A DNA stretch of 64,000 nt from a virus. Shown in pieces: positions 2,251 to 32,678 of this stretch (positions within the stretch are counted from its first letter, which is position 1; every line of letters starts with the position of its first letter). The stretch is from the IMG/VR virus record IMGVR_UViG_3300025834_000005, one strand, 5' to 3'. The notes below the pieces were generated by a model. It searched no databases. It saw only the letters and a program-made list of their open reading frames with translations, and was not told where the DNA came from. The position numbers were made by a program, and so were the translations under genes.

Positions 2251-2709
2251 ATGGTAAAAAGAATATTAATGTTAACCTTATTTTTTATGACGATTCTACC
2301 TTTCAGTGGATTTGTCGTAGCAAATAAATCATCGGCGGATGAAAAGAATACTCTAACTCTGGAGAACGTCTACAACGAATTGTGCAGGCTGGGCGTAAGA
2401 GATAAGAATATCGTAATGGCGCAAGTTAGACTTGAAACAGGTCATCTAAATAAAATACAGCATAAAAACAACCTATTTGGCTTCAAGAAGCCTAACGGTA
2501 AATATAACACATATGACACATGGCAAACGAGTGTGGCTGATTTTAAAAGATGGCAAGATAAGTATTTCGTTAATGGCACATATTTAGAATTTATAAAAAA
2601 AAGAGGCTATGCTGCTAACATGCAGAATTATATTATGAATCTAAAAAAATTAATGTCTAAGTATAATAAAGTAAACGCAAGTTATGAACAAACTGATACA
2701 ATTGATTAA
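2251..2709 (+). CDS. secreted or membrane-anchored peptidoglycan hydrolase, glucosaminidase (FlgJ/LytD-like) domain
   Basis: N-terminal hydrophobic segment ILMLTLFFMTILPFSGFVVA, then MAQVRLETGHLN...NNLFGFKK (glucosaminidase AQ..E.G / NNLFG.K pattern). Start set at ATG 2251 because a promoter copy lies inside the longer track ORF. Confidence 0.6.
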   Translation: MVKRILMLTLFFMTILPFSGFVVANKSSADEKNTLTLENVYNELCRLGVRDKNIVMAQVRLETGHLNKIQHKNNLFGFKKPNGKYNTYDTWQTSVADFKRWQDKYFVNGTYLEFIKKRGYAANMQNYIMNLKKLMSKYNKVNASYEQTDTID

Positions 2710-3193
2710 CGAAATGATTGATGTTTTTCACGGAAGTACTAACAAATTTGATGTCTTCGATACAAGTAAAATAGGCACAGGCGACGGCAAAAGTATTGGT
2801 GGCTGGGGTTTAAATTTTTCAGACACAAGGGAAGTTGCTCAACAGTATTTTCTAAAAAGCGGATTTGTTGGTAGCTATAAAATTCCCAATGGAGATTATT
2901 TTAGCTTAGATGATAGGTTTGACCCAAGTGTGGGCGAGCTTATAAAAAGGGCACTCGATAAAATCGGAACTATAAAAGATGATGATATCGAAGAATTTCA
3001 AAACGATTTTATCGATAATGCCGATGAAGTTACCAATAAACAAGTGTATGAGTGGTTGTCATATGTTGTAGGATCTGAAAAGAATGCTTCTCTGCTTTTA
3101 GATCGGATAGGTTTTGTCGGCAATAAGTTCAGCGACAGGTGGAACAGAGAAGCAACAAATTATGTTATTTTCGATTCTAAAAATATTAGATAA
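2684..3193 (+). CDS. hypothetical protein, possible ADP-ribosyltransferase (H-Y-E/PARP-like) fold
   Basis: VFHGSTNKFDVFD...GGWGLNFSDTREVAQQY resembles the PARP-type HGS ... GxGxYFxxxxxxxxxY layout, read by eye only. Confidence 0.4.
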   Translation: MNKLIQLINEMIDVFHGSTNKFDVFDTSKIGTGDGKSIGGWGLNFSDTREVAQQYFLKSGFVGSYKIPNGDYFSLDDRFDPSVGELIKRALDKIGTIKDDDIEEFQNDFIDNADEVTNKQVYEWLSYVVGSEKNASLLLDRIGFVGNKFSDRWNREATNYVIFDSKNIR

Positions 3194-4115: not shown

Positions 4116-4976
4116 ATGATTTGTGTATACCATAAAAAAGATAATGATGGTTTCTGTAGTGCCGCAATTATACAGAGAAAATATCCAGATGCTGAATTTA
4201 TTGGCTATGATCATGGCGATGATCATATCAAATTTCTTGACTTTATCGACGAAGAAATCATAGTTGTTGATATTAGTTTCCCTATGAATATCATGTATAA
4301 CATTGCCAGTCGTAATAAGCTAACATGGATAGATCATCACGCATCGAGCATTGATAGTTATAATGTTTTTGATCATTCTACTGATAATAATATTAATGCT
4401 ATTCTTGAGGTGGGTAGAGCCGCTTGCGAATTAACATGGGAATATATTTTTCCTAATGAATTCATGCCTATAGGTATTGAATGCTTGGGAAAATATGATA
4501 CTTGGCGTGGATATGGCTCTGATGAATGGAATCATTACATTCTACCATTTGAATATGGAATGAGATCAATTTGTTCAAGCTTTGAGACATTTCCAAAGTT
4601 TGTCATAGATTACAATGAAGGCGAAGCTATTGATAGCATAATTAATAGTGGTAGAATCATAATTGGCTACCAAAATGTGGTTGACTCAAAACTATGTGTT
4701 TCAAATTCATTTGTTCGTCGTTTTAAAGGTTATAGAGCACTTTGTTTGAATGTTCCTTACATTGACTCGAATACAATGCAAAGTGTTTTCAACGCATCTG
4801 AACACGATTTAATGCTATCATTTACTTTTAAAGGCACACATTGGAGTTGCAGCCTTAGAAGTCAAGGTGATTTAGATGTCAGTGCTATTGCCAAATCAAT
4901 GGGCGGTGGTGGGCACAAAAACGCATCGGGCATGGAATTAACAACAGCCCAATTAGTAGAATTATTTAAATTGTGA
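4116..4976 (+). CDS. DHH/DHHA1 family phosphoesterase (NrnA/RecJ-like)
   Basis: Motifs HKKDNDG (DxD), VVDISF, WIDHHASS (DHH) and GGGGHKNASG (DHHA1 GGGH). Confidence 0.75.
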   Translation: MICVYHKKDNDGFCSAAIIQRKYPDAEFIGYDHGDDHIKFLDFIDEEIIVVDISFPMNIMYNIASRNKLTWIDHHASSIDSYNVFDHSTDNNINAILEVGRAACELTWEYIFPNEFMPIGIECLGKYDTWRGYGSDEWNHYILPFEYGMRSICSSFETFPKFVIDYNEGEAIDSIINSGRIIIGYQNVVDSKLCVSNSFVRRFKGYRALCLNVPYIDSNTMQSVFNASEHDLMLSFTFKGTHWSCSLRSQGDLDVSAIAKSMGGGGHKNASGMELTTAQLVELFKL

Positions 4977-13545: not shown

Positions 13546-14709
13546 ATGAGAACAAGTGTCGTACTCGGATTAGGATTCGGGGATGAAGGTAAGGGAAGTA
13601 TGGTAAACTTTCTATGTAAGGTACATAAAAATGAACGTCCATTGGTGGTTAGATTTAGTTCTGGACACCAAGTAGGTCATACCGTTGTCGAGGGTGATCT
13701 TAGACATGTTTTTTCAAATTTTGGGTCAGGGACTCTTAGTGATGTGCCAACATACTGGTCAGAGTATTGCACGATGAATCCATCAGCCATACGGTCAGAG
13801 GGCGAAGCATTAAAGAAGATGGGTGTATTTCCGACACTATATATTAACGATAATGCGATGGTTACAACACCATACGACATATTAAAGAATCGTATGTCAG
13901 AGACTAAGAATCGTCATGGCAGTGTTGGTGTTGGGTTTGGCTCGACTATTCAGCGTAATGAGGATCATTTCAAGCTATATGCCAGAGATTTGAAATTTCC
14001 TAAAATTCTTGATATTAAATTGAAACATATTGCCGAGATATATCATAAAAGCACTTTTGTCGAATATCCTGATGGTTATGTTGAGAAACTGATAAATAAT
14101 TTTAAGCTTGATTGCAAATATGTTGTAAATGAGCATATGTTTGTTTCTCGCATTAATGATGTTATATATGATAAGCAATTTGGACATTTAATATTCGAAG
14201 GAAACCAAGGTATCATGCTTGATCAGGATTATGGTTTCTTTCCAAATGTAACCAGATGCAATACAACGTCGAAAAATGCTTTTGAGATCATGAAAAAATA
14301 TGGTGTTCATACTGGCGAAACAAACGTTTACTATATGACACGTGCATATCAAACTCGTCATGGTAATGGTGAAATGATTAATGAGGGAATGGATGTGCAA
14401 TACATTGCTGAGAATCCTCTTGAAACCAACGTACAAGGCGAATTTCAAGGTAGTTTTAGGAAAGCACCTCTGGATTTACAGACAATTAAATATGCTTTAT
14501 CATGCGATAAAGTATATAATGACTATAGCATATCGAATCTTGTTATAACATGCATGGATCAAGTTCCTGAACGCATACCTATTATGAACGGCGATAAATT
14601 AGCTCACATGTATCCGTCACTAATAGGTTCTATTCTGAATATAAGACCCTTAAATATATTCATAAGTAAATCGGATAAAGGTGATTTTGAAAATGCAATG
14701 GATTTATGA
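13546..14709 (+). CDS. adenylosuccinate synthetase family protein (PurA/PurZ-like)
   Basis: GFGDEGKGSMV (GDEGKG P-loop), SGHQVGHT, FEGNQG, TRCNTT, QTRHGNG align by eye to the PurA motifs GDEGKGK, GHNAGHT, EGAQG, TSSNT, STRVGxGP. The TKLD position reads TCMD. Confidence 0.8.
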   Translation: MRTSVVLGLGFGDEGKGSMVNFLCKVHKNERPLVVRFSSGHQVGHTVVEGDLRHVFSNFGSGTLSDVPTYWSEYCTMNPSAIRSEGEALKKMGVFPTLYINDNAMVTTPYDILKNRMSETKNRHGSVGVGFGSTIQRNEDHFKLYARDLKFPKILDIKLKHIAEIYHKSTFVEYPDGYVEKLINNFKLDCKYVVNEHMFVSRINDVIYDKQFGHLIFEGNQGIMLDQDYGFFPNVTRCNTTSKNAFEIMKKYGVHTGETNVYYMTRAYQTRHGNGEMINEGMDVQYIAENPLETNVQGEFQGSFRKAPLDLQTIKYALSCDKVYNDYSISNLVITCMDQVPERIPIMNGDKLAHMYPSLIGSILNIRPLNIFISKSDKGDFENAMDL

Positions 14710-16833: not shown

Positions 16834-18159
16834 ATGTTTGATTTAAAAGGAAAGCACACAGATGCTATTTTATATTTAGATAATTATGAGGACGGTTTAT
16901 TCGAGCAAATCTACCCAATCATTAACTCATATGTATCCAAAGGCTTAAAGGTTCGTATTATGCCAGATGCCCATATTGGTAAAGGTATCTGTATCGGTTT
17001 CACTATGGAATTGGGTCAGTATTTGAATCCGAACTGGTGTGGCGTTGATATTGGCTGCGGAATGCTGTCAGGCAGATTTAAAGCAAATGGCGTATTAGAC
17101 TTAGCCATGATCGATGAAAAGATCAAGAAATTAGTTCCTATGGGATTTAATGTTCATGAGGGTGCTAAGTCGAAAAAGATTCCATATGCCGAAGTACAGG
17201 AATTAGCGAACAAATTTGCTGAAAAGTATAATGAAAAGTTTGGTACTTCTTATGTTGCGCCTTCTTACAATGAGAAATGGCTGAAAACTAAGCTAAAGAC
17301 TATTGGTATGGATGCTGAGAAGTTATTCAAGTCAATCGGAACTTTAGGTGGTGGTAATCACTTCATTGAACTTGGGTATGACGAAGAGTCAAAGGATAAC
17401 TGGATTACAGTTCACTGTGGTTCAAGAAACTTAGGTGTTAAGGTATGTGAGTACTGGCTGAACCAAGCTAAAACACAGTCAAATGATACCTCACCTGAAT
17501 ATCTTGCGGAATTCGATGCTTTGGTTAAGAATACTGTGGATAGATCAACAATACCTCAGTTGATGAAGGAATTAAGAGAGAAATATAAAAAGGGTATTGA
17601 TCGTGATTACCTTTCAGATGAATTGTCCGTAGGATATTTGTTTGATATGATCTTTGCTCAAAAATATGCTGAATGGAATCGTCAGACTATACTTGATATA
17701 ATCCAAAAGATTTTGAAAGTGAAGGCTTTTGACGAAGTTATTTCATCAGTGCATAACTATGTCGACTTTCATGACTTCATCATCAGAAAAGGCTCTATTT
17801 CATCATATGTGGGTCAAAAAATGATTATTCCTTTTAATCAAAAGGATGGTATGCTTATCTGCGAAGGTAAATCAAATCCTGACTGGAATAACTCTGCGCC
17901 ACACGGAGCAGGTAGACTCTATTCAAGATCGAAAGCTAAGGAATTGATCACTCTTGAAATGGTTGAAGAATCAATGAAAGGAATCTATTCAACATCAGTA
18001 TGTAATTCGACTATTGATGAATCGGTTTTTGCCTACAAAGATTCTAAAATGATCGAAGAAGCGATTCAAGATACCGCAACAATTCTTCATAGGGTAAAAC
18101 CTATTTTGAATATTAAGGATTCAACAGCCGCTCCAAGACGTTCGAAGAAAAATCAGTAA
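16834..18159 (+). CDS. rtcB: RtcB RNA 3'-phosphate/2',3'-cyclic phosphate ligase
   Basis: IMPDAHIGKGICIGF, CGVDIGCGM, GGGNHFIELG, HCGSRNLG, SAPHGAGR: the full set of RtcB metal/GMP-histidine motifs. Confidence 0.93.
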   Translation: MFDLKGKHTDAILYLDNYEDGLFEQIYPIINSYVSKGLKVRIMPDAHIGKGICIGFTMELGQYLNPNWCGVDIGCGMLSGRFKANGVLDLAMIDEKIKKLVPMGFNVHEGAKSKKIPYAEVQELANKFAEKYNEKFGTSYVAPSYNEKWLKTKLKTIGMDAEKLFKSIGTLGGGNHFIELGYDEESKDNWITVHCGSRNLGVKVCEYWLNQAKTQSNDTSPEYLAEFDALVKNTVDRSTIPQLMKELREKYKKGIDRDYLSDELSVGYLFDMIFAQKYAEWNRQTILDIIQKILKVKAFDEVISSVHNYVDFHDFIIRKGSISSYVGQKMIIPFNQKDGMLICEGKSNPDWNNSAPHGAGRLYSRSKAKELITLEMVEESMKGIYSTSVCNSTIDESVFAYKDSKMIEEAIQDTATILHRVKPILNIKDSTAAPRRSKKNQ

Positions 18160-19794: not shown

Positions 19795-20124
19795 ATGAGT
19801 ATGATGAGAATAAATAATATGAGTTATAGTGGCAACAACATAGTTATTTCCAAAGGAAAGGTTATAATTGATGGCGTTGACGTAACACCTGATTCAAAAA
19901 AAATCAACATTGTTGTTGACGGTAACATCGATAAATTGAATGTGGATACTTGCGATACACTACAAATAACTGGTGATGTGGACACAGTGTCTACTATGTC
20001 TGGCGACGTTGATATAACTGGTAATGTTACTGGCAGTGTTAAAACTATGTCTGGCGATGTTAAATGCGAAAATATCGGCGGTGGCGTATCTACTATGTCT
20101 GGCGATATCAAATACAGAAAATAA
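19795..20124 (+). CDS. beta-helix repeat protein, bactofilin-like (polymer-forming)
   Basis: Repeated (S/K)TMSGD(V/I) units and G-x-V/I periodicity; the DNA repeat actatgtctggcga occurs three times. Confidence 0.4.
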   Translation: MSMMRINNMSYSGNNIVISKGKVIIDGVDVTPDSKKINIVVDGNIDKLNVDTCDTLQITGDVDTVSTMSGDVDITGNVTGSVKTMSGDVKCENIGGGVSTMSGDIKYRK

Positions 20125-20813
20125 TGAAATTTTTAATTCAAATAGATAAAGGCAGAGTAATACATGATTTTGCCTTCACATTGCTTGAGAGTATTGAGTA
20201 TCTAAACTGGATTTCAGACGAAAAAATAGTGACGTACAGGCTCACTGAAAACTCAATGCCAGCTGGTTTTGTGCCGATAGGTACTGTTGAGTTTGTTAGC
20301 GACTACATTGAGAAATATTCAGGTAGTAGACCTAAGCCTATAAATATACCAGCTGAATTAATGTCACATGAATTTACCCATAGGCATGTGAAGAACGGTA
20401 CTGAACTGGACATTGTTCAGAAGTCATTTGTAAAATCGAGTGACCACATCAAGTCATTCGCAGAGATTTGCGATCATGCACCAATGGGTAACTACCAAAT
20501 ATCTGATATTATCGAGATTGAGAGCGAATGGAGAGCATTTGTATACAATGGTAAGTTAGTTGGGCTTCAAAATTATTCTGGAAGTTTTACCGAGTTTCCC
20601 AACGTGTACTCAATTCAATGTATGATTAATGCTTATAAGTCAGCACCCATAGCATACACATTAGATGTTGCAATTACAAAAGGCGGATGGACTTCGGTAA
20701 TTGAGGTTCATGACTTTTTTAGCTGTGGATTATACGGATTTGCTGATCACAAAATACTACCATTCATGTTTTCAAGATGGTATGGCGAATATATACGTAA
20801 TTTAGCTTACTAA
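20124..20813 (+). CDS. ATP-grasp fold protein (phage DUF4343-like)
   Basis: SEWRAFVYNGKLVGLQNYSG and a C-terminal ..VIEVHDFFSCGLYG pattern; start at ATG 20124 (TAATG overlap). Confidence 0.45.
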   Translation: MKFLIQIDKGRVIHDFAFTLLESIEYLNWISDEKIVTYRLTENSMPAGFVPIGTVEFVSDYIEKYSGSRPKPINIPAELMSHEFTHRHVKNGTELDIVQKSFVKSSDHIKSFAEICDHAPMGNYQISDIIEIESEWRAFVYNGKLVGLQNYSGSFTEFPNVYSIQCMINAYKSAPIAYTLDVAITKGGWTSVIEVHDFFSCGLYGFADHKILPFMFSRWYGEYIRNLAY

Positions 20814-25067: not shown

Positions 25068-26501
25068 ATGAGTAAATTGAACCCTATTTTAAAAAGTGGC
25101 GTTTCTGATTTAAAATCAGATGAAAGACTTGCTGGTGGATTTGGAACCAGAGCAGCTAAACAAGACGAATTAGCTCTATTACGTAGAGTTGTTTTAGCGA
25201 ACCTATTATGGGAAAACATTGCGTATGCTAACGGTGAAGATGTTTCAACACAGATCAGCCAGTTGATTCCGCAATGTAATCCTCAAGATGTTGCTGATCT
25301 TGCTGTTGAGGCGAGACTTGAGCAGAAATTGCGTCATACTCCTTTGTTTATTTGTGTTGAAATGCTGAAACACGTTGGATATTCTGCGTTGGTTGCCGAT
25401 ATCTTACCAAAGATTATCACAAGAGCAGACATGATTACAGACTTTCTTGCTATCTACAAGAAACAGAATGGCGGTAAGCTAAAGCCTTTGGCTGCTGCTG
25501 CTAAGAAAGGTTTGGCGAAAGCATTCGATAACTTTAACGAATACCAATTCGCTAAATATGACAGGGATGCCGAGATCAAGTTAAGGGATGCTATGTTTTT
25601 AGCTCACCCAAAACCATCTTCACAGGAAAAGATTGAACTTTACAAGAAAGTTGCTGATCGTACTTTGAAAACTCCTGATACATGGGAAGTTGCTTTATCG
25701 ACAGGTAAAGATAAGAAAGCCACATGGGAGAGATTGATCGATGAAAAGAAAATCGGTGGTTTGGCAATGTTGCGCAATGTACGTAATATGGTTCAGTCGG
25801 GTGTTAACTCGAATAGCATTAGAAAGGGATTGAAAAATCTAAATAGTTCGATGTTATTGCCTTTCAATTTCTTAACAGCCTCAAGGTTTGCACCTGAGTA
25901 TTCGAGAGATATTGAGGATGCTATGGTTGAGTCTTATAAGAATCTTCCTAAATTATCTGGAAAGACATTATTCATTGTCGATATTTCAGGCTCAATGGGT
26001 GCTAAATTATCTGACAAGTCGGGAATGTCCAGAATGGATGCTGCTTGTGCAATGGCTATGCTTGCGATTAATCAATGTGAAAACTATGAAATCGTAGCAA
26101 CTGCTGGGAATGATGGTTCGCATAAAGGTGCTCATAAGCATATTCTAAATCCAAAAAAGGGATTCGATGTGTTCAAGCAAATTCAAAGTGCTGGAAGTGA
26201 AATCGGCTGTGGTGGTATTTTCACCAGACAGTGTATCGAATGGTGTAAAGCCAACGTATCTGATACATTCGACAGAATTATCATATTCTCTGACTCACAG
26301 GATTGCGATCTTATGAATGCGAGAATTCCAGCACCTTACGGCAAATATAACTATATTTGCGACGTATCGTCAAATGAGAGAGGCGTTAACTTTAGGAATG
26401 TATGGGATGCCGAAATTACAGGTATGTCTGAAAACTTCCTAACATATATCGCTGCAAACGAAGGTCTAACAAATAAATTTGACGACCAGAGTGAAAATTA
26501 A
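25068..26501 (+). CDS. rsr: Ro60-like TROVE domain + vWA domain protein (Rsr-like)
   Basis: LLRRVVLANLLWENIAYANGED...RLEQKLRHTPLFICVEM and GGLAMLRNVRNM fit the TROVE pattern (compare Ro60 ..LLRNLGKM). C-terminal MIDAS FIVDISGSMG ... IIIFSDSQD. Confidence 0.8.
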   Translation: MSKLNPILKSGVSDLKSDERLAGGFGTRAAKQDELALLRRVVLANLLWENIAYANGEDVSTQISQLIPQCNPQDVADLAVEARLEQKLRHTPLFICVEMLKHVGYSALVADILPKIITRADMITDFLAIYKKQNGGKLKPLAAAAKKGLAKAFDNFNEYQFAKYDRDAEIKLRDAMFLAHPKPSSQEKIELYKKVADRTLKTPDTWEVALSTGKDKKATWERLIDEKKIGGLAMLRNVRNMVQSGVNSNSIRKGLKNLNSSMLLPFNFLTASRFAPEYSRDIEDAMVESYKNLPKLSGKTLFIVDISGSMGAKLSDKSGMSRMDAACAMAMLAINQCENYEIVATAGNDGSHKGAHKHILNPKKGFDVFKQIQSAGSEIGCGGIFTRQCIEWCKANVSDTFDRIIIFSDSQDCDLMNARIPAPYGKYNYICDVSSNERGVNFRNVWDAEITGMSENFLTYIAANEGLTNKFDDQSEN

Positions 26502-26504
26502 TCA

Positions 26505-26554
26505 ACAAAGGTACTATTTATACTTGCAAATTAAATATTAAATAGTACCTTTGT
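26505..26554 (+). other. long perfect hairpin after the TROVE stop (attenuator or processing site; no T run)
   Basis: ACAAAGGTACTATTTA / TAAATAGTACCTTTGT 16-bp stem, 18-nt loop. Confidence 0.5.
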
Positions 26555-26562
26555 AAAAATAT

Positions 26563-26634
26563 TAAGTAATAGCGTTCGGTAAGGGTTACTTCCTCCATAA
26601 ATGAAATCACACCCTACCATCAGTTCTTTGCTTA
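26563..26634 (+). ncRNA. Y-RNA-like stem-loop RNA 1 (conserved module + anticodon-arm-like apex)
   Basis: Ends pair TAAGTAA-t-AG / CT-TTGCTTA; internal loop cgttc/atcagtt; helix GGTAaGGGT/ACCCTACC; apex ACTTC-10nt-GAAAT. Confidence 0.6.
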
Positions 26635-26642
26635 CAAAAATT

Positions 26643-26712
26643 TAGATAATGGCGTTCGATACGGTTACTTCCTTTTACGAAATATTCACCGTATTATCTT
26701 TTTCCTTATCTA
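26643..26712 (+). ncRNA. Y-RNA-like stem-loop RNA 2 (conserved module + tRNA-Lys(UUU)-like anticodon arm)
   Basis: TAGATAA-t-GG / CC-TTATCTA; loop cgttc/atcttttt; helix GATACGG/CCGTATT; apex ACTTC-CTTTTAC-GAAAT. Confidence 0.65.
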
Positions 26713-26719
26713 TTTATAT

Positions 26720-26785
26720 CGGAGTGTGTCTTGGCTTGTAATGCAGTATACGGTATTATATGAGGATCGTCCCCTCGCACACCGA
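26720..26785 (+). ncRNA. degenerate tRNA-like element (acceptor-like pairing + T-arm-like hairpin, no canonical D/anticodon arms)
   Basis: CGGAGTG/CACACCG (one A-A mismatch); TGAGG-ATCGTCC-CCTCG keeps G53, T55, C56, C61 equivalents; only 34 nt between. Confidence 0.3.
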
Positions 26786-26788
26786 CAA

Positions 26789-26900
26789 ATGAATAATGGC
26801 GTTAGAAACAGTTTCATCAACTCAATCTCAATAATTAAGATCAACTCAATCTCAATAATTAAGTAAATACAAAACTCTGTCTCTCATTTTCCTTATTCAT
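26789..26900 (+). ncRNA. Y-RNA-like stem-loop RNA 3 (conserved module, long apex with 24-bp tandem duplication)
   Basis: ATGAATAA-t-GG / CC-TTATTCAT; loop cgtta/tcatttt; helix GAAACAG/CTGTCTC (one A-C mismatch). Confidence 0.6.
26816..26863 (+). repeat. perfect 24-bp tandem duplication
   Basis: atcaactcaatctcaataattaag occurs twice, inside the apex of RNA 3. Confidence 0.9.
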
Positions 26901-26909
26901 CTATATTAT

Positions 26910-27033
26910 AGGGCGTTAGCTCAGTTGGTAGAGCGCGAAATTCTCTTTTACACCTTTTCCCTTTATTGTGGCGTTCGTAAAAGTTACTTCATTCTTAATG
27001 ACGAGGTCGGTGGTTCGAGTCCATCATGCCCTA
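26910..27033 (+). tRNA. tRNA-Lys(CUU)-like gene with a 51-nt insertion between D arm and anticodon arm
   Basis: Acceptor AGGGCGT/ATGCCCT; U8; D arm GCTC-AGTTGGTA-GAGC; insertion 26936-26986; anticodon arm CTTCA-TTCTTAA-TGACG (one U-C mismatch); AGGTC; T arm GGTGG-TTCGAGT-CCATC. Confidence 0.6.
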
Positions 27034-27035
27034 CG

Positions 27036-27120
27036 AAAAACAATAGTGTTCGAGACAGTTTCATCAAAAAAATCGAAATTTTTATACAAAAAACTCTGTC
27101 TTAACTGTTCTTTGTTTTTT
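27036..27120 (+). ncRNA. Y-RNA-like stem-loop RNA 4 (conserved module; apex related to RNA 3)
   Basis: AAACAA-t-AG / CT-TTGTTT; loop tgttc/aactgtt; helix GAGACAG/CTGTCTT; apex TTTCATCAA...ATACAAAAAACT. Confidence 0.6.
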
Positions 27121-27128
27121 TTGAATAT

Positions 27129-27165
27129 AAAAGGTCAACATACTCAAAATATGTTGACCTTTTTT
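27129..27165 (+). terminator. rho-independent terminator closing the TROVE/RNA unit
   Basis: AAAAGGTCAACATA / TATGTTGACCTTTT 14-bp stem, 7-nt loop, T run. Confidence 0.8.
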
Positions 27166-27193
27166 GTAACCTTTTTTATCGAGTTACGTATAA
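27164..27193 (+). promoter_or_regulatory. ECF-type promoter copy TTGTAAC-N16-CGTATAA
   Basis: -35 at 27164-27170, -10 at 27187-27193. Confidence 0.6.
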
Positions 27194-27219
27194 TATAGAA
27201 ACAATTTAAATTTATTGAA

Positions 27220-27777
27220 ATGTTAAAAAATACTGAAATTAAGATCATCGACTTTAGAACGTCGTTAAACAAAGAAAACGAAAATGAATACGTTATTCAG
27301 CCTAATTATAAGGTTCAATACGAGAACGTTATAATTGAATTAAAAGGTAAAACATTTCTCGTTAATATTGGCTGTCAGAGTGTGACAATCAATAAGGATA
27401 ATGTATTACCAATCGCTCAAGAGTTTGAGGGTATCGATAAAAAACCAGTGCTTTACAAACTAATTTTGCCAAATGATGATAAACGTGAATTAAAATCAAT
27501 GAGAAATCTCCCAATATATAAAGAGTCTTCGCCATCCTTACACATATCGTCAAATGGTAAAGTTTATGACAGAGAGAAATTTAGCATCGTTGAAAAAACG
27601 ATAACGCCATCTAATGAGTATTTTAAGAAAAGTGATACGTTGAGCACTGTGCAATATTTAAAAAAAGACCGTAGATTGTACAGGGACGACATACAAAATA
27701 TAAGAAAAATTTTAAATACAATGTGCGATCATTTTAACATTGAATACCCTGACGTTAAAGACTCTAAAAATGAGTAG
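27220..27777 (+). CDS. hypothetical protein
   Basis: ORF track. Confidence 0.5.
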   Translation: MLKNTEIKIIDFRTSLNKENENEYVIQPNYKVQYENVIIELKGKTFLVNIGCQSVTINKDNVLPIAQEFEGIDKKPVLYKLILPNDDKRELKSMRNLPIYKESSPSLHISSNGKVYDREKFSIVEKTITPSNEYFKKSDTLSTVQYLKKDRRLYRDDIQNIRKILNTMCDHFNIEYPDVKDSKNE

Positions 27778-30200: not shown

Positions 30201-30663
30201 AACAAATTTAGAATATAGAATGTATTTTCTTGTGTTAGGCTCACTACAAGGTATTAATAAAGGAATTCAGTGTGGGCATGCCGCATTAGAGTATGTGGAC
30301 GAATATGGCAGTAATGACGATTACCGAGACTTTTTCGAGAATGATAAAACATTCATTATGCTGAATGGCGGAACGTCTAATAATGGCTTCGATGAAGATG
30401 GTAAATTCTTAGGTTCTTTGAATATGATTGCTGATGAATTAAATTCAAATAATATCAACTTTGCCATGTTTTATGAGCCAGATATTAACAATGCCTTAAC
30501 AGCTGTATGTTTTCTTGCTGATGAAAGAGTTTATAATAAGTTTATTTATCCTGACTATGATTCAGATAATTTCACGTCCTATGAGCAATGGCTTTCAGAT
30601 ATTGGCGGAACTAAGAACTTCATCCTACGAGAAATTCTCGACGGAAAAAAATTAGCGTCATGA
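30193..30663 (+). CDS. peptidyl-tRNA hydrolase PTH2-like protein
   Basis: YRMYFLVLGSLQGINKGIQCGHAALEY parallels PTH2 ..VVRxDLxMGKGKxAAQCxHAA..; later FIMLNG and ALTAVCF segments fit the fold order. Confidence 0.45.
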   Translation: MNRTNLEYRMYFLVLGSLQGINKGIQCGHAALEYVDEYGSNDDYRDFFENDKTFIMLNGGTSNNGFDEDGKFLGSLNMIADELNSNNINFAMFYEPDINNALTAVCFLADERVYNKFIYPDYDSDNFTSYEQWLSDIGGTKNFILREILDGKKLAS

Positions 30664-31187
30664 CAACAGAGCCAACATTCATAATTATAGCGGCTGTTAG
30701 CCTTGACGGAAAAATTGGACATGATAATGATCTATTATGGCATATACCCGAAGACCTTAAGCATTTCAAAGAAAACACCATAAATCAGGTATTACTTATG
30801 GGCTTAAATACCTTTAAGTTTTTGCCAGAGGTTGCAAAAAAGAACCGTAAGTTTATCATTCTTAATGGTAGCGAAGAAGATTTAAAACATGAGTCTATCT
30901 TATTTCAATGTGCTTCAATAACTGAATTATTCGAAGAATTAAAATTTGATCAATATCAGGATATAAAAAGCATTTATGTTGCTGGTGGTGCAATGGTTTA
31001 CAATTCAATGATACCATTCTGCGATAAGGCTTTATTAACTCTTGTTGAAGAATGTTTCCCCGATGCTAATAAAGGCTTTCCATCGGAACTATTTCTAAAA
31101 ATGTTTGAATTAGATGATGATGATTTCGTATACAATAGAAGCAAATCAAATATAATATATTCATTTCGTCGATATACTCGCAAATGA
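30660..31187 (+). CDS. folA: dihydrofolate reductase
   Basis: IIAAVSLDGKIGHDNDLLWHIPEDLKHFKENTINQVLLMGLNTF and VAGGAMVY. Confidence 0.8.
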   Translation: MTTEPTFIIIAAVSLDGKIGHDNDLLWHIPEDLKHFKENTINQVLLMGLNTFKFLPEVAKKNRKFIILNGSEEDLKHESILFQCASITELFEELKFDQYQDIKSIYVAGGAMVYNSMIPFCDKALLTLVEECFPDANKGFPSELFLKMFELDDDDFVYNRSKSNIIYSFRRYTRK

Positions 31188-31262: not shown

Positions 31263-32678
31263 ATGAACGACAAAGAACTAATATTACCAAATAATAAGTT
31301 GATCACATTTAATGATCAGCAATATGATGGCATTAATTTAATGCGTCAATGGCTTAAAACCGATAATAAGTTCTTCACTTTAGCTGGCTATGCTGGAACA
31401 GGTAAAACTACCATAGTAAAGAAAATACTTGATGAATCCAGCAGAAAAATAGCCGTATCAGCACCTACACATAAAGCTAAGAAAGTTGTTGCACGATCAA
31501 CATCACAAGAAGCTTTAACATTACAAGCTATATGTGGATTAAGACCAGATGTAGACCTTGATAATTTCAATCCAAATAGTCCCGAATTCGGAGTAATCGC
31601 AATACCTAAGATCAGCAATTTTGATATTTTAGCTATTGATGAAGCATCTATGATCAACGCTGATTTATTCGCTTTAATTAAAAGGTTATCCGAAAAAGCA
31701 GCTACTCAGATATTATTCATGGGTGACCCTGCACAGATACCGCCCATAAATGAGAAAGAAAGTGTTGTTTTCAACGATTCGTCAATCTTAATGCATTGGC
31801 TTACAAAGATAGAACGTCAAACTGACGGCAATGCATTGTGTGTTATTTACGATGCATTAAGAAACAACCTAAACAGATCGGACGGCGGATTCAACAGAAT
31901 CACAGATATTAACAGCGATGGTGAAGGCGTTATCTTTACAAAGAGTAAAAGATTTTTTAGAGATCGCTTACTAAAGGAATTTTCATCAGAAGAGTTTAAA
32001 AGAGATACTGATCACGTTAAATTAATAGCTTGGAAGAACGAGACTGTGATGTATTCTAATAAAATGATACGTGACAGTTTATTTGGTGCTAATAGCGATA
32101 TAGTTGAGATTAACGACCTTTTAATGGGCTATCGAAGTATTGGCGATAAAAGTCGGTTATATAATATTATTGAGAATTCGGCGGATTACAGAATTGTAAC
32201 CAAATCTGATCTGGAACAAAGCGAATTGGATATATTCGGCTATTATGTCAAGCTACGTGAAAATACAGGCTTTGGAAGTTACACATTCCGAGACGTTTTC
32301 ATTGTAGATACCAATGACGTGAGTAACATGCATTTATATGCTGAATATCATGACTTTTTCAGAGATATGGCAAGTAAAAATAAAAAACTATGGACTAAAT
32401 ATTACGATTTTAGACGTAATAATATGATTCTACGCAACATCACTGAATTCAGAAATGGTACTTTACGTGGACGTAAGGATATTATTGTAAAAGATTTGGA
32501 TTATGGATTTGCTATCACAGGTCATAAATCACAAGGTAGTACCTATAAGAATGTTTTCATTCTTGAGGATGATATTGACGAAAACTGGTCTATTAAAGAA
32601 CGAAATCAGATAAAATACGTTGCTATGACACGACCATCGAAGTCTGCAACCATTTTAACATCAAATGCGATGGATTAA
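31263..32678 (+). CDS. SF1 RecD/Dda-like DNA helicase
   Basis: Walker A AGYAGTGKTT, Walker B ILAIDEASMI, GDPAQIPPI, GHKSQGSTYKNVFI. Confidence 0.8.
   Translation: MNDKELILPNNKLITFNDQQYDGINLMRQWLKTDNKFFTLAGYAGTGKTTIVKKILDESSRKIAVSAPTHKAKKVVARSTSQEALTLQAICGLRPDVDLDNFNPNSPEFGVIAIPKISNFDILAIDEASMINADLFALIKRLSEKAATQILFMGDPAQIPPINEKESVVFNDSSILMHWLTKIERQTDGNALCVIYDALRNNLNRSDGGFNRITDINSDGEGVIFTKSKRFFRDRLLKEFSSEEFKRDTDHVKLIAWKNETVMYSNKMIRDSLFGANSDIVEINDLLMGYRSIGDKSRLYNIIENSADYRIVTKSDLEQSELDIFGYYVKLRENTGFGSYTFRDVFIVDTNDVSNMHLYAEYHDFFRDMASKNKKLWTKYYDFRRNNMILRNITEFRNGTLRGRKDIIVKDLDYGFAITGHKSQGSTYKNVFILEDDIDENWSIKERNQIKYVAMTRPSKSATILTSNAMD

What the first reader, a model, noticed from the sequence alone, without database searches (positions are those of the whole stretch)
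26563..27120. Five copies of one RNA module supported by compensatory base changes
The same architecture recurs five times with different helix sequences. It consists of a terminal helix, a bulged T, a 2-bp RG/CY step, an asymmetric internal loop (5' YGTTM, 3' 7-8 nt T-rich) and a 7-9 bp inner helix. RNA1: TAAGTAA-t-AG-cgttc-GGTAaGGGT ... ACCCTACC-atcagtt-CT-TTGCTTA. RNA2: TAGATAA-t-GG-cgttc-GATACGG ... CCGTATT-atcttttt-CC-TTATCTA. RNA3: ATGAATAA-t-GG-cgtta-GAAACAG ... CTGTCTC-tcatttt-CC-TTATTCAT. RNA4: AAACAA-t-AG-tgttc-GAGACAG ... CTGTCTT-aactgtt-CT-TTGTTT. The fifth copy sits inside the tRNA-like gene: CTTTTAC-acctttt-CC-[ctttattgt]-GG-cgttc-GTAAAAG. Outer and inner helices differ in sequence in every copy yet keep pairing. 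The GG/CC step covaries to AG/CT. The single-stranded YGTTC stays conserved. This pattern fits a protein-binding RNA motif rather than a DNA repeat or a coding sequence.
Basis: seen in the sequence. Interest (0 to 1): 0.85.

Follow-up and report, generated by a model that had tools for sequence, protein, structure and literature searches.

The report
Phage Ro60 with five Y RNAs
Just downstream of its Ro60-like (TROVE) gene, this crAss-like gut phage encodes four hairpin RNAs and one tRNA-shaped RNA that all carry the docking stem known from bacterial Y RNAs, so this is a known kind of system, but its tRNA-shaped member has an arrangement I did not find described.

Summary
A covariance model built only from other phages finds exactly four linear copies in the 64-kb window (E 2e-14 to 1e-5; next hit E about 1). 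A second model finds the tRNA-embedded copy at 109 bits.

Across 110 distinct homologues, 93.9% of cells pair, against 35-47% when partners are slid. All 17 pairs show double changes. The RG:CY step is AU 69, GC 39, GU 2 and is never unpaired.

The module is not new. It is the Ro60/Rsr-binding stem of bacterial-type Y RNAs (YrlA/YrlB). It has a bulged U, a variant of GNCGAAN0-1G (here GGCGUUCG) and a 7-8 bp helix, followed by the YUAY-containing motif UUACWUC. The same module lies beside rsr in Reyranella, Acidobacteria, Moraxella, and Xanthomonas and Caulobacter phages, where it brackets Rfam YrlA hits.

The window is a crAss-like phage. Its relatives, including crAss001, carry 5-6 such RNAs, none annotated in the records I checked.

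The tRNA-shaped copy is the new variant. It is a complete cloverleaf with an open 7-bp acceptor stem, and the capped Ro arm is inserted into the anticodon stem. This is the inverse of the circularly permuted YrlA.

Binding to the TROVE protein and the downstream function are inferred.

The parts
25068..26501 (+). Ro60/Rsr orthologue (TROVE + vWA protein, 477 aa), the presumed protein partner
   Evidence: Pfam TROVE 1.6e-16. About 60% identical to crAss001 gp96. Homologous to Thermus phage phiLo Ro60, PDB 9KOP/9L5Y, E 5e-18.
26505..26554 (+). 16-bp perfect hairpin just after the TROVE stop codon; possibly a boundary or processing signal, function not established
   Evidence: Fold -19.4 kcal/mol, z -7.05. 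Conserved in L005.
26563..26634 (+). Y RNA 1 (stem-loop type): outer helix, bulged U26570, AG:CU, CGUUC loop, inner helix, UUACUUC
   Evidence: R1 37.9 bits, E 4e-7. Compensatory inner-helix changes against L005.
26643..26712 (+). Y RNA 2 (stem-loop type)
   Evidence: R1 41.5 bits, E 4e-8. The MFE fold reproduces the module, z -2.39.
26719..26785 (+). Extra structured element without the Ro module (terminal stem plus T-arm-like hairpin); membership in the system is uncertain
   Evidence: Fold. One compensatory change against L005. Found only in L004/L005.
26789..26900 (+). Y RNA 3 (stem-loop type) with a 24-nt tandem duplication (26816-26863) in its apical loop
   Evidence: R1 32.3 bits, E 1e-5. 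The duplication is absent from L005.
26910..27033 (+). tRNA-shaped Y RNA: open 7-bp acceptor stem, D arm, anticodon-type hairpin (loop UUCUUAA), AGGUC variable loop and T arm, with a 51-nt extra arm inserted between nt 28 and 29
   Evidence: Rfam tRNA 42.6 bits with a 64-nt insert. ARAGORN misses it. R2 109 bits. After excision of the arm, ARAGORN calls a cloverleaf, Lys-CUU.
26945..26990 (+). Capped (strand-swapped) Ro-binding module inside the tRNA-shaped RNA: CUUUUAC-accuuuu-CC-[cuuuauug]-u-GG-cguuc-GUAAAAG-UUACUUC
   Evidence: Sequence. Helices 4 and 5 of the R2 alignment are 94-99% paired with double changes.
27037..27118 (+). Y RNA 4 (stem-loop type)
   Evidence: R1 65.5 bits, E 2e-14.
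27129..27166 (+). Terminator-like hairpin followed by a U run, closing the RNA cluster
   Evidence: Fold -17.9 kcal/mol, z -5.27. Conserved in L005. Not flagged by the consensus terminator scan.

Best explanation
The region is a cluster of five Y RNAs of a crAss-like phage, encoded directly downstream of, and on the same strand as, the phage's Ro60 orthologue.

Shown:
- Each RNA carries one conserved, covarying module: helix, bulged U, R-G:C-Y, asymmetric internal loop (5' YGUWN, 3' ...GUU), a 7-8 bp helix, then single-stranded UUACWUC.
- The same module lies beside rsr/TROVE genes in many bacteria and phages. There it forms the terminal stem of RNAs that Rfam's YrlA model recognises.

Inferred from the homologous systems (Xenopus and D. 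radiodurans Ro60; Thermus phage phiLo Ro60-Yrl2):
- The variable distal part of each RNA, either an A/U-rich loop or a tRNA-shaped domain, recruits or blocks a different partner. Candidates are host PNPase, tRNA-recognising enzymes or the phage's own RtcB ligase.
- The phage thereby reprogrammes host RNA decay or repair early in infection.

Inferred from the anatomy:
- The RNAs are packed 3-8 nt apart between two strong hairpins, so they are probably cut from one precursor.
- The tRNA-shaped RNA has a 7-bp acceptor stem, discriminator A and all the tertiary-contact nucleotides. It is probably released by RNase P, trimmed at the 3' end and given CCA. It would then resemble the RNase P-cleaved, CCA-tailed M. 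smegmatis YrlA, but as a single chain.
For: Specificity:
- A model trained elsewhere finds only these four linear copies in 64 kb.
- It gives 149/149 and 63/63 hits on the TROVE strand in TROVE-centred phage and bacterial loci.
- It gives 0 hits in 692 kb of TROVE-less viral DNA.

Structure:
- Linear RNAs: 93.9% paired against 35-47% when slid; 17/17 pairs with double changes; covariation score 0.948 against 0.07-0.17.
- tRNA-shaped RNAs: 94.9% paired, 24/28 pairs with double changes, 76 distinct sequences.
- RNAalifold agrees on a structure-blind alignment.
- G.U 77 against A.C 19.

Identity with known Y RNAs:
- R1 hits enclose the Rfam RF02553 YrlA hits in Xanthomonas phage Tenjo, L012 and L080.
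- Reyranella sp. and Caulobacter phage CcrColossus read u-GG-cguag-helix-UUACUUC ... guu-CC.
- The motif GNCGAAN0-1G and the conserved YUAY are described in PMC4201824 and 10.1101/312249.

Protein partner:
- TROVE domain.
- Homologue of phiLo Ro60, which binds its own Y-like RNAs through the stem-bulge CGAA region and also binds host PNPase.

Context:
- The crAss001 TROVE gene is an early gene.
- The window also encodes RtcB, the ligase that sits in bacterial rsr-yrlBA-rtcBA operons.
Against: - There are no expression or binding data for any crAss-like phage RNA.
- Rfam's YrlA and metazoan Y_RNA models give no hit in the window even at E<=10.
- The loop reads CGUU or UGUA where characterised Y RNAs have CGAA. 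In phiLo, A-to-U changes in CGAA lowered affinity 3-4 fold.
- The T-stem sequence that is nearly invariant in YrlA (GCGGG/CCCGC) is not kept here.
- Neither the effector nor the benefit to the phage is known.
- No promoter or terminator signal above chance was found.
Confidence: 0.85

Rival explanations
1. The structures are cis-acting parts of the TROVE mRNA, for example a structured 3' UTR, autoregulatory Ro60 binding sites or processing and stability signals, and not separate small RNAs.
For: The cluster starts 62 nt after the TROVE stop codon on the same strand. No independent promoter stands out.
Against: In many relatives and bacteria the same modules lie upstream of TROVE. Known homologues are discrete RNAs cut from polycistronic precursors. 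A strong hairpin separates the ORF from the cluster. One member is a complete tRNA-shaped gene with an RNase P-type acceptor stem.
Confidence: 0.06
2. The module is bound by a partner other than the TROVE protein, either another phage or host RNA-binding protein or the ribosome. The linkage to TROVE would then reflect only a shared pathway.
For: Binding has not been measured. The most conserved element (UUACWUC) is not the one shown to contact Ro60 in Xenopus or phiLo.
Against: Module and TROVE co-occur strictly across phyla and phages, on the same strand. The module has the bulged-helix architecture and the GNCG core of experimentally mapped Ro60/Rsr sites.
Confidence: 0.05
3. The tRNA-like gene is a working, decoding tRNA (Lys-CUU) that tolerates an extra arm, and the four hairpins are unrelated terminators or spacers.
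For: It scores 42.6 bits on the Rfam tRNA model. Once the arm is excised, ARAGORN calls a cloverleaf with a 7-nt loop UUCUUAA and discriminator A.
Against: The 'anticodon' changes between close relatives that share the same acceptor stem: Lys, His and Ser in one group; Lys, Thr and a 9-nt loop in another; CUU in the window against CCU in the 86%-identical L004. The arm interrupts the anticodon stem between nt 28 and 29, a part of the stem that as far as I know contacts the ribosome (my own knowledge). The four hairpins share the module with it and covary as one family.
Confidence: 0.03
4. The copies are DNA-level repeats, such as protein-binding sites, recombination sites or remnants of duplication, with no RNA function.
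For: Five similar units lie in 560 bp. RNA3 and RNA4, and the outer helices of RNA2 and RNA3, look like recent duplicates.
Against: Pairing is kept through changes on both sides at every helix position. G.U outnumbers A.C four to one. All hits lie on one strand. Only the unpaired motifs are conserved in primary sequence.
Confidence: 0.01

Closest known systems
Bacterial YrlA (Rfam RF02553; S. Typhimurium, M. smegmatis; Chen et al. 2014; crystal structure 6CU1)
   Same: It is encoded next to rsr on the same strand. It has the same terminal module (GNCG-type motif in a bulged stem, 7-bp helix, YUAY) joined to a tRNA-like domain with a UAGCUCAGUUGGUAGAGC D arm and a UUCGA T loop. M. smegmatis YrlA is cut by RNase P and receives CCA.
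   Different: In YrlA the T arm comes before the D arm, the acceptor stem is closed by a loop and the RNA ends lie in the Ro stem. Here the ends lie in an open 7-bp acceptor stem, the D arm comes before the T arm, and the Ro stem is capped by a loop and inserted in the anticodon stem. The motif reads CGUU or UGUA, not CGAA. The T-stem sequence differs. RF02553 does not score the window at all.
YrlB / D. radiodurans Yrn2-type hairpin Y RNAs
   Same: They are long hairpins whose paired 5' and 3' ends carry the Ro-binding site, with a small variable loop. They are encoded beside YrlA and processed from a common precursor.
   Different: The window has four paralogues where characterised bacteria have one. 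Their apical loops are A/U-rich and evolve fast, and one has a 24-nt duplication.
Thermus phage phiLo Ro60 with Yrl1/Yrl2 (NAR 2025, PDB 9KOP/9L5Y)
   Same: A phage-encoded Ro60 homologue (E 5e-18 to the window protein) sits next to adjacent Y-like RNAs. The stem-bulge region is the binding site. The complex engages host PNPase.
   Different: phiLo has two RNAs, upstream of the gene, with a CGAA motif. As far as I read the paper, no tRNA-shaped member is reported (its text contains no 'tRNA-like'). Its host is a different phylum.
Metazoan Y RNAs (Rfam RF00019)
   Same: Same logic: the terminal helix has a single bulged pyrimidine on the 5' strand, a few base pairs and an asymmetric internal loop that forms the Ro60 site. 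Several paralogues exist per genome, each with a different distal loop.
   Different: There is no sequence or model similarity (no Rfam hit at E<=10). Metazoan Y RNAs are Pol III transcripts with no tRNA-like domain.
b7a-tRNA (tRNA-like RNA predicted near Band-7/RtcB, occasionally near Rsr; Burroughs & Aravind 2016, as cited in 10.1101/312249)
   Same: It is a tRNA-like RNA of ordinary topology linked to RNA-repair loci. crAss001 has an SPFH/Band-7 gene 2.3 kb downstream of its RNA cluster.
   Different: I could not read the original description. The window has no Band-7 homologue. Whether b7a-tRNA carries a Ro-binding arm is unknown to me.

Membership tests
Bacterial/phage Y RNA (Ro60/Rsr-associated ncRNA, sensu Chen et al. 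2014) | Encoded within about 4 kb of a Ro60/TROVE gene and on the same strand | tested here: met
   The cluster 26563-27118 starts 62 nt after the TROVE stop codon on the + strand. Across related loci, 149/149 and 63/63 hits are on the TROVE strand.
Bacterial/phage Y RNA (Ro60/Rsr-associated ncRNA, sensu Chen et al. 2014) | Stem formed by the RNA ends that carries the Ro-binding motif GNCGAAN0-1G | tested here: inconclusive
   The stem and the GNCG core are present (GGCGUUCG, AGCGUUCG, AGUGUUCG), but UU replaces AA. Bacterial and phage relatives read GGCGUAG or GGUGAAG in the same place. In the tRNA-shaped copy the stem is internal, not terminal.
Bacterial/phage Y RNA (Ro60/Rsr-associated ncRNA, sensu Chen et al. 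2014) | At least one RNA per locus has a tRNA-like domain | tested here: met
   26910-27033 scores 42.6 bits on Rfam tRNA (gathering score 29). D-arm and T-loop tertiary nucleotides are present.
Bacterial/phage Y RNA (Ro60/Rsr-associated ncRNA, sensu Chen et al. 2014) | Physically bound by, and stabilised by, the Ro60 orthologue | not testable with these tools
   This needs immunoprecipitation or a gel shift. The only support is homology to phiLo Ro60-Yrl2.
Rfam RF02553 YrlA | Match to the covariance model (gathering score 69 bits) | tested here: not met
   No YrlA hit at E<=10 in 26400-27250. The model does hit RNAs that carry the same module in L015, L016, L012 and L080, at 29-56 bits.
Rfam RF02553 YrlA | Circularly permuted tRNA order (T arm, closed acceptor stem-loop, D arm) with the RNA ends in the Ro stem | tested here: not met
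   The window RNA has the order D arm, Ro arm, hairpin, T arm, with an open acceptor stem. The canonical order does occur in the related locus L008 4410-4564.
Canonical tRNA (RF00005) | Cloverleaf with an uninterrupted anticodon arm that tRNA finders recognise | tested here: not met
   ARAGORN finds no tRNA in the window. Rfam aligns it only by skipping a 64-nt insert. It is recognised only after the arm is excised in silico.
Canonical tRNA (RF00005) | Anticodon conserved among orthologues (decoding identity) | tested here: not met
   The loop varies among RNAs that share an acceptor stem: Lys, His, Ser, Thr, Gln and loops that are not 7 nt.
Metazoan Y RNA (RF00019) | Match to the covariance model | tested here: not met
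   No hit at E<=10.

The most novel reading that the evidence does not exclude
The tRNA-shaped copy is a natural, non-permuted form of YrlA. It is a complete tRNA (free acceptor end, elbow, anticodon-type hairpin) with a Ro60-docking arm grafted into its anticodon stem.

If so, Y RNAs of this lineage could have arisen from a single tRNA that gained an arm, and the permuted YrlA could derive from tandem copies of it. In function, Ro60, possibly together with the phage's RtcB, would be tethered to an RNA that tRNA enzymes treat as a tRNA: RNase P, the CCA-adding enzyme, perhaps a synthetase or an anticodon nuclease.

One purpose would be to act as a decoy for, or a repair platform against, host tRNA-cleaving defences. 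The fast-changing anticodon-type loop, most often CUUUUAA (to my knowledge the anticodon-loop sequence of tRNA-Lys(UUU)), would fit an arms race.
Probability: 0.25. Interest if true: 0.75.

Novelty: new variant of a known kind. Interest (0 to 1): 0.55.

Why it matters
1. Annotation. Cultured and reference crAss-like phages (crAss001, cr112_1, cr106_1) have 0.5-0.9 kb of unannotated 'intergenic' DNA after the TROVE gene. It holds five or six structured RNAs that ARAGORN and Rfam's Y-RNA models miss.

2. A tractable system. What Y RNAs do is a long-standing open question. crAss001 on Bacteroides intestinalis is a culturable pair in which the Ro60 gene is expressed within 10 minutes of infection (PMC8375218). 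That makes the partners and effects of several Y RNAs directly testable.

3. Origin of Y RNAs. The open-acceptor tRNA-shaped RNA shows that the Ro-binding arm can sit on an otherwise complete tRNA. This bears on the proposed origin of Y RNAs from tRNAs. Together with RtcB in the same phage, it also bears on the proposed link between Ro60, tRNA mimicry and RNA repair or anticodon-nuclease conflicts (PMC7790460).

4. Possible medical angle (my own knowledge, not tested here). Ro60 is a major lupus and Sjogren autoantigen, and Ro60 orthologues of commensals have been proposed as triggers. Ro60 RNPs made by very abundant gut phages would add to that pool.

Tried and rejected
- **Rfam at E<=10 on the region.** Only the tRNA hit is meaningful. 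The microRNA, snoRNA and sRNA matches are at chance level.
- **Promoter and terminator scan.** Counts do not exceed the shuffles.
- **Exact-pattern scan of IMG/VR (TGGTGTA-N9-11-GTTACTTC).** The 80 loci returned were chance matches with no TROVE gene, no convincing module and no R1 hit. They serve only as a negative control and do not amount to a census of TROVE-less modules.
- **Pairing CUUC of the conserved motif with GAA after the D arm (equivalent to YrlA 'helix 3').** Not conserved. It is replaced by the covarying 2-bp 27-28:42-43 helix plus a local hairpin.
- **The tRNA-shaped RNA as a conserved tRNA-Lys mimic.** CUUUUAA is the commonest loop, but the loop is not conserved.
- **Link to Band-7/b7a-tRNA.** The window has no Band-7 homologue, and the source paper was not available.
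- **The element 26719-26785.** No homologue beyond the two closest relatives, so it cannot be classified.
- **Exact register between GNCGAAN0-1G of Salmonella-type YrlA and uRG-YGUWN here.** Rfam's alignment of the Tenjo RNA suggests a different register. This is left unresolved.
Full report
**What is there**

The window is a crAss-like phage. Its 477-aa protein at 25068-26501 has a TROVE domain (Pfam 1.6e-16). It is about 60% identical to gp96 of Bacteroides phage crAss001 and to other Steigviridae. It is homologous to the Ro60 of Thermus phage phiLo, PDB 9KOP/9L5Y (E 5e-18).

Between a 16-bp hairpin right after the stop codon (26505-26554) and a terminator-like hairpin (27129-27166) lie, 3-8 nt apart:
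- RNA1, 26563-26634
- RNA2, 26643-26712
- a 67-nt element without the module, 26719-26785
- RNA3, 26789-26900
- a tRNA-like gene, 26910-27033
- RNA4, 27037-27118

Rfam reports only a tRNA, at 42.6 bits with a 64-nt insert. ARAGORN reports nothing.

**Checking the observation**

To test them without circularity I took homologous loci around TROVE genes from GenBank phages and IMG/VR. I aligned 42 stem-loop RNAs from phages other than the window and its 86%-identical relatives and built covariance model R1.

With filters off on both strands of the 64-kb window, R1 returns exactly the four linear copies: 65.5, 41.5, 37.9 and 32.3 bits, E 2e-14 to 1e-5. The next hit is at 13 bits, E about 1.

On 92 TROVE-centred sources it gives 149 hits, all on the TROVE strand. 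In the 110 distinct sequences:
- 93.9% of cells pair, against 35-47% when the 3' partners are slid.
- All 17 pairs have changes on both sides.
- The covariation score is 0.948, against 0.07-0.17.
- The 2-bp step is A-U 69, G-C 39, G-U 2, and never unpaired.

RNAalifold finds the same helices on the structure-blind alignment. G.U pairs outnumber A.C by 77 to 19, so the fold belongs to the + strand RNA. Even against the closest relative (L005) there are compensatory changes in the RNA1 inner helix and in the tRNA-like T stem.

Small corrections:
- The inner helices of RNA3 and RNA4 are nearly the same, and RNA3 has an A.C mismatch.
- Only Y-G of the 5' loop is conserved across the family.

**What it is**

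The module is the Ro60/Rsr-binding module of bacterial-type Y RNAs. Chen et al. 2014 (PMC4201824) described Y RNAs within 4 kb of rsr on the same strand in more than 250 bacteria and 22 phages. These carry a 5' motif GNCGAAN0-1G and a conserved YUAY, and one RNA per species has a tRNA-like domain.

Rfam's YrlA model (RF02553) gives sub-threshold but significant hits upstream of TROVE in:
- Xanthomonas phage Tenjo
- Caulobacter phage CcrColossus
- two IMG/VR loci

Those RNAs read outer helix, u, GG, ugaag/uguag/cguag, 7-bp helix, UUACUUC ... guu, CC, outer helix. R1, built from crAss-type RNAs, brackets these YrlA hits.

In bacterial genomes R1 gives 63 hits, all on the rsr strand. They come from Acidobacteria, Moraxella, Cytophagales, Chloroflexota and the isolate Reyranella sp. 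CPCC 100927. The Reyranella RNAs show the module around a textbook YrlA: T arm, closed acceptor stem-loop, D arm.

As a negative control, 692 kb of TROVE-less viral DNA that carries the bare linear motif gives no R1 hit at E<=0.1.

The window's GGCGUUCG is thus a variant of GNCGAAN0-1G, and UUAC is the YUAY. Rfam's YrlA and metazoan Y_RNA models do not score the window at all. I found no paper linking crAss-like phages to Y RNAs. The RefSeq records of crAss001, cr112_1 and cr106_1 leave the region unannotated.

**The tRNA-shaped copy**

Model R2, built from 23 such genes, scores the window RNA at 109 bits. It finds 91 RNAs above 57 bits, of which 76 are distinct. In these, 94.9% of cells pair, 24 of 28 pairs show double changes, and the 2-bp step again covaries, U-A 44 and C-G 31.

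The anatomy in the window is:
- acceptor AGGGCGU/AUGCCCU plus discriminator A
- U8-A9, then D arm GCUC-AGUUGGUA-GAGC, then G26
- C27-G28
- a 51-nt insertion made of:
  - linker AAAUUCU
  - CUUUUAC, accuuuu
  - CC, cap cuuuauug, bulged u, GG
  - cguuc, GUAAAAG
  - UUACU
- U29-C30-A31, loop UUCUUAA, U39-G-A-C-G43
- variable loop AGGUC
- T arm GGUGG-UUCGAGU-CCAUC

Pairs 27-28 with 42-43 covary across the family: CG/CG, CU/AG, UG/CA, GU/AC, GC/GC.

So this is a full cloverleaf with an open acceptor stem. The Ro arm, closed by a loop, is grafted into the 5' strand of the anticodon stem. When the arm is removed in silico, ARAGORN of 76 family members as tRNAs. The window's is called Lys-CUU. The 'anticodon' differs among RNAs with the same acceptor stem (Lys, His and Ser in one group; Lys, Thr and a 9-nt loop in another), so it is not a decoding identity.

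This is the inverse of YrlA, which the literature describes as resembling a circularly permuted tRNA with a closed acceptor stem. Both forms sit side by side in L008: canonical at 4410-4564, open-acceptor at 4567-4692.

High-scoring open-acceptor forms (above 70 bits) were found almost only on crAss-like contigs. The exceptions are an unrelated 92-kb viral contig (L013) and one AT-rich Hyphomicrobiales MAG contig (L151).

**How it probably works**

Shown:
- a conserved, covarying RNA module
- strict linkage to TROVE genes
- identity with the stem of YrlA-class RNAs

Inferred from homologues: the module docks on the Ro60 ring.
- In Xenopus and D. radiodurans, the 5' strand of the bulged helix is contacted.
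- In phiLo, cryo-EM density and CGAA mutations map binding to the stem-bulge.

The distal parts then bind or block other factors. In D. radiodurans and S. Typhimurium the partner is PNPase. In phiLo the complex with host PNPase slows RNA decay.

The crAss001 TROVE gene is expressed within 10 minutes, so the RNP would act early.

The window also encodes RtcB at 16834-18159 (Pfam 4.4e-56). This echoes bacterial rsr-yrlBA-rtcBA operons, which respond to cleaved tRNAs. For those, YrlA has been suggested as a competitive inhibitor of an anticodon nuclease. A role in countering tRNA-directed host defences is therefore plausible but untested.

Processing from one precursor, with RNase P releasing the tRNA-shaped RNA, is inferred from the tight spacing and the 7-bp acceptor stem. 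The precedent is M. smegmatis YrlA.

**Verdict**

The module itself is already known, and the crAss-like phage RNAs are new, unannotated members. The open-acceptor tRNA-shaped Y RNA is a new variant, as are the size of the array (five here, five or six in relatives) and the YGUW form of the loop.

My confidence that these are Ro60-bound Y RNAs is 0.85. Confidence in any particular downstream function is much lower.

Noticed in passing
window 16834-18159 (+): A gene for an RtcB RNA ligase (Pfam RtcB 4.4e-56) lies about 7 kb upstream of the TROVE gene on the same strand. This recalls the bacterial rsr-yrlBA-rtcBA RNA-repair operon. The crAss001 group is not among the best phage matches for this protein.
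   Followed up: partly
window 26719-26785 (+): A 67-nt element lies between Y RNA 2 and Y RNA 3. It has a 10-bp terminal stem with one A.A mismatch and a T-arm-like hairpin GAGG-AUCGUCC-CCUC, which changes compensatorily to AAGG/CCUU in L005. It has no Ro module and is found only in the two closest relatives. It may be another small RNA of the cluster.
   Followed up: partly
window 26816-26863 (+): An exact 24-nt tandem duplication (AUCAACUCAAUCUCAAUAAUUAAG, two copies) sits in the apical loop of Y RNA 3. It is absent from the 86%-identical relative L005, so the distal loops change quickly.
   Followed up: yes
window 26505-26554 (+): A perfect 16-bp hairpin with an 18-nt loop lies immediately after the TROVE stop codon (z -7). 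It is conserved in L005 and has no U run. It could be a processing site or a terminator for a phage polymerase.
   Followed up: no
L001 4948-5086 (crAss001), L002 5367-5504 and many IMG/VR loci: Relatives carry a second class of tRNA-shaped Y RNA with a reduced D arm (GGGGAUG-UGGUGAAAUAAAGC...), the cap CCC-GAA-GGG and a longer covarying hairpin before the T arm. The window lacks this class.
   Followed up: partly
L008 4410-4564 and 4567-4692: One crAss-like contig encodes a canonical, permuted YrlA-type RNA directly followed by an open-acceptor tRNA-shaped one. Both topologies therefore coexist in one phage.
   Followed up: partly
L003 431-735, L008 5522-5829, L006 1593-2117: Relatives carry phage-encoded tmRNA genes (Rfam 52-74 bits) and several tRNA genes within 1-3 kb of the TROVE locus.
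   Followed up: no
L001 6691-7416 (crAss001 gp91): An SPFH/Band-7 protein is encoded 2.3 kb downstream of the crAss001 RNA cluster. Band-7 proteins have been linked in the literature to a predicted tRNA-like RNA (b7a-tRNA). The window has no homologue.
   Followed up: partly
window 2684-3193, 4116-4976, 13546-14709, 20064-20813, 30660-31187, 31263-32678: Other recognisable genes in the window, in that coordinate order: an ART-PolyVal ADP-ribosyltransferase domain, a DHH/DHHA1 phosphoesterase, adenylosuccinate synthetase, an R2K ATP-grasp protein, dihydrofolate reductase and an SF1 helicase.
   Followed up: no
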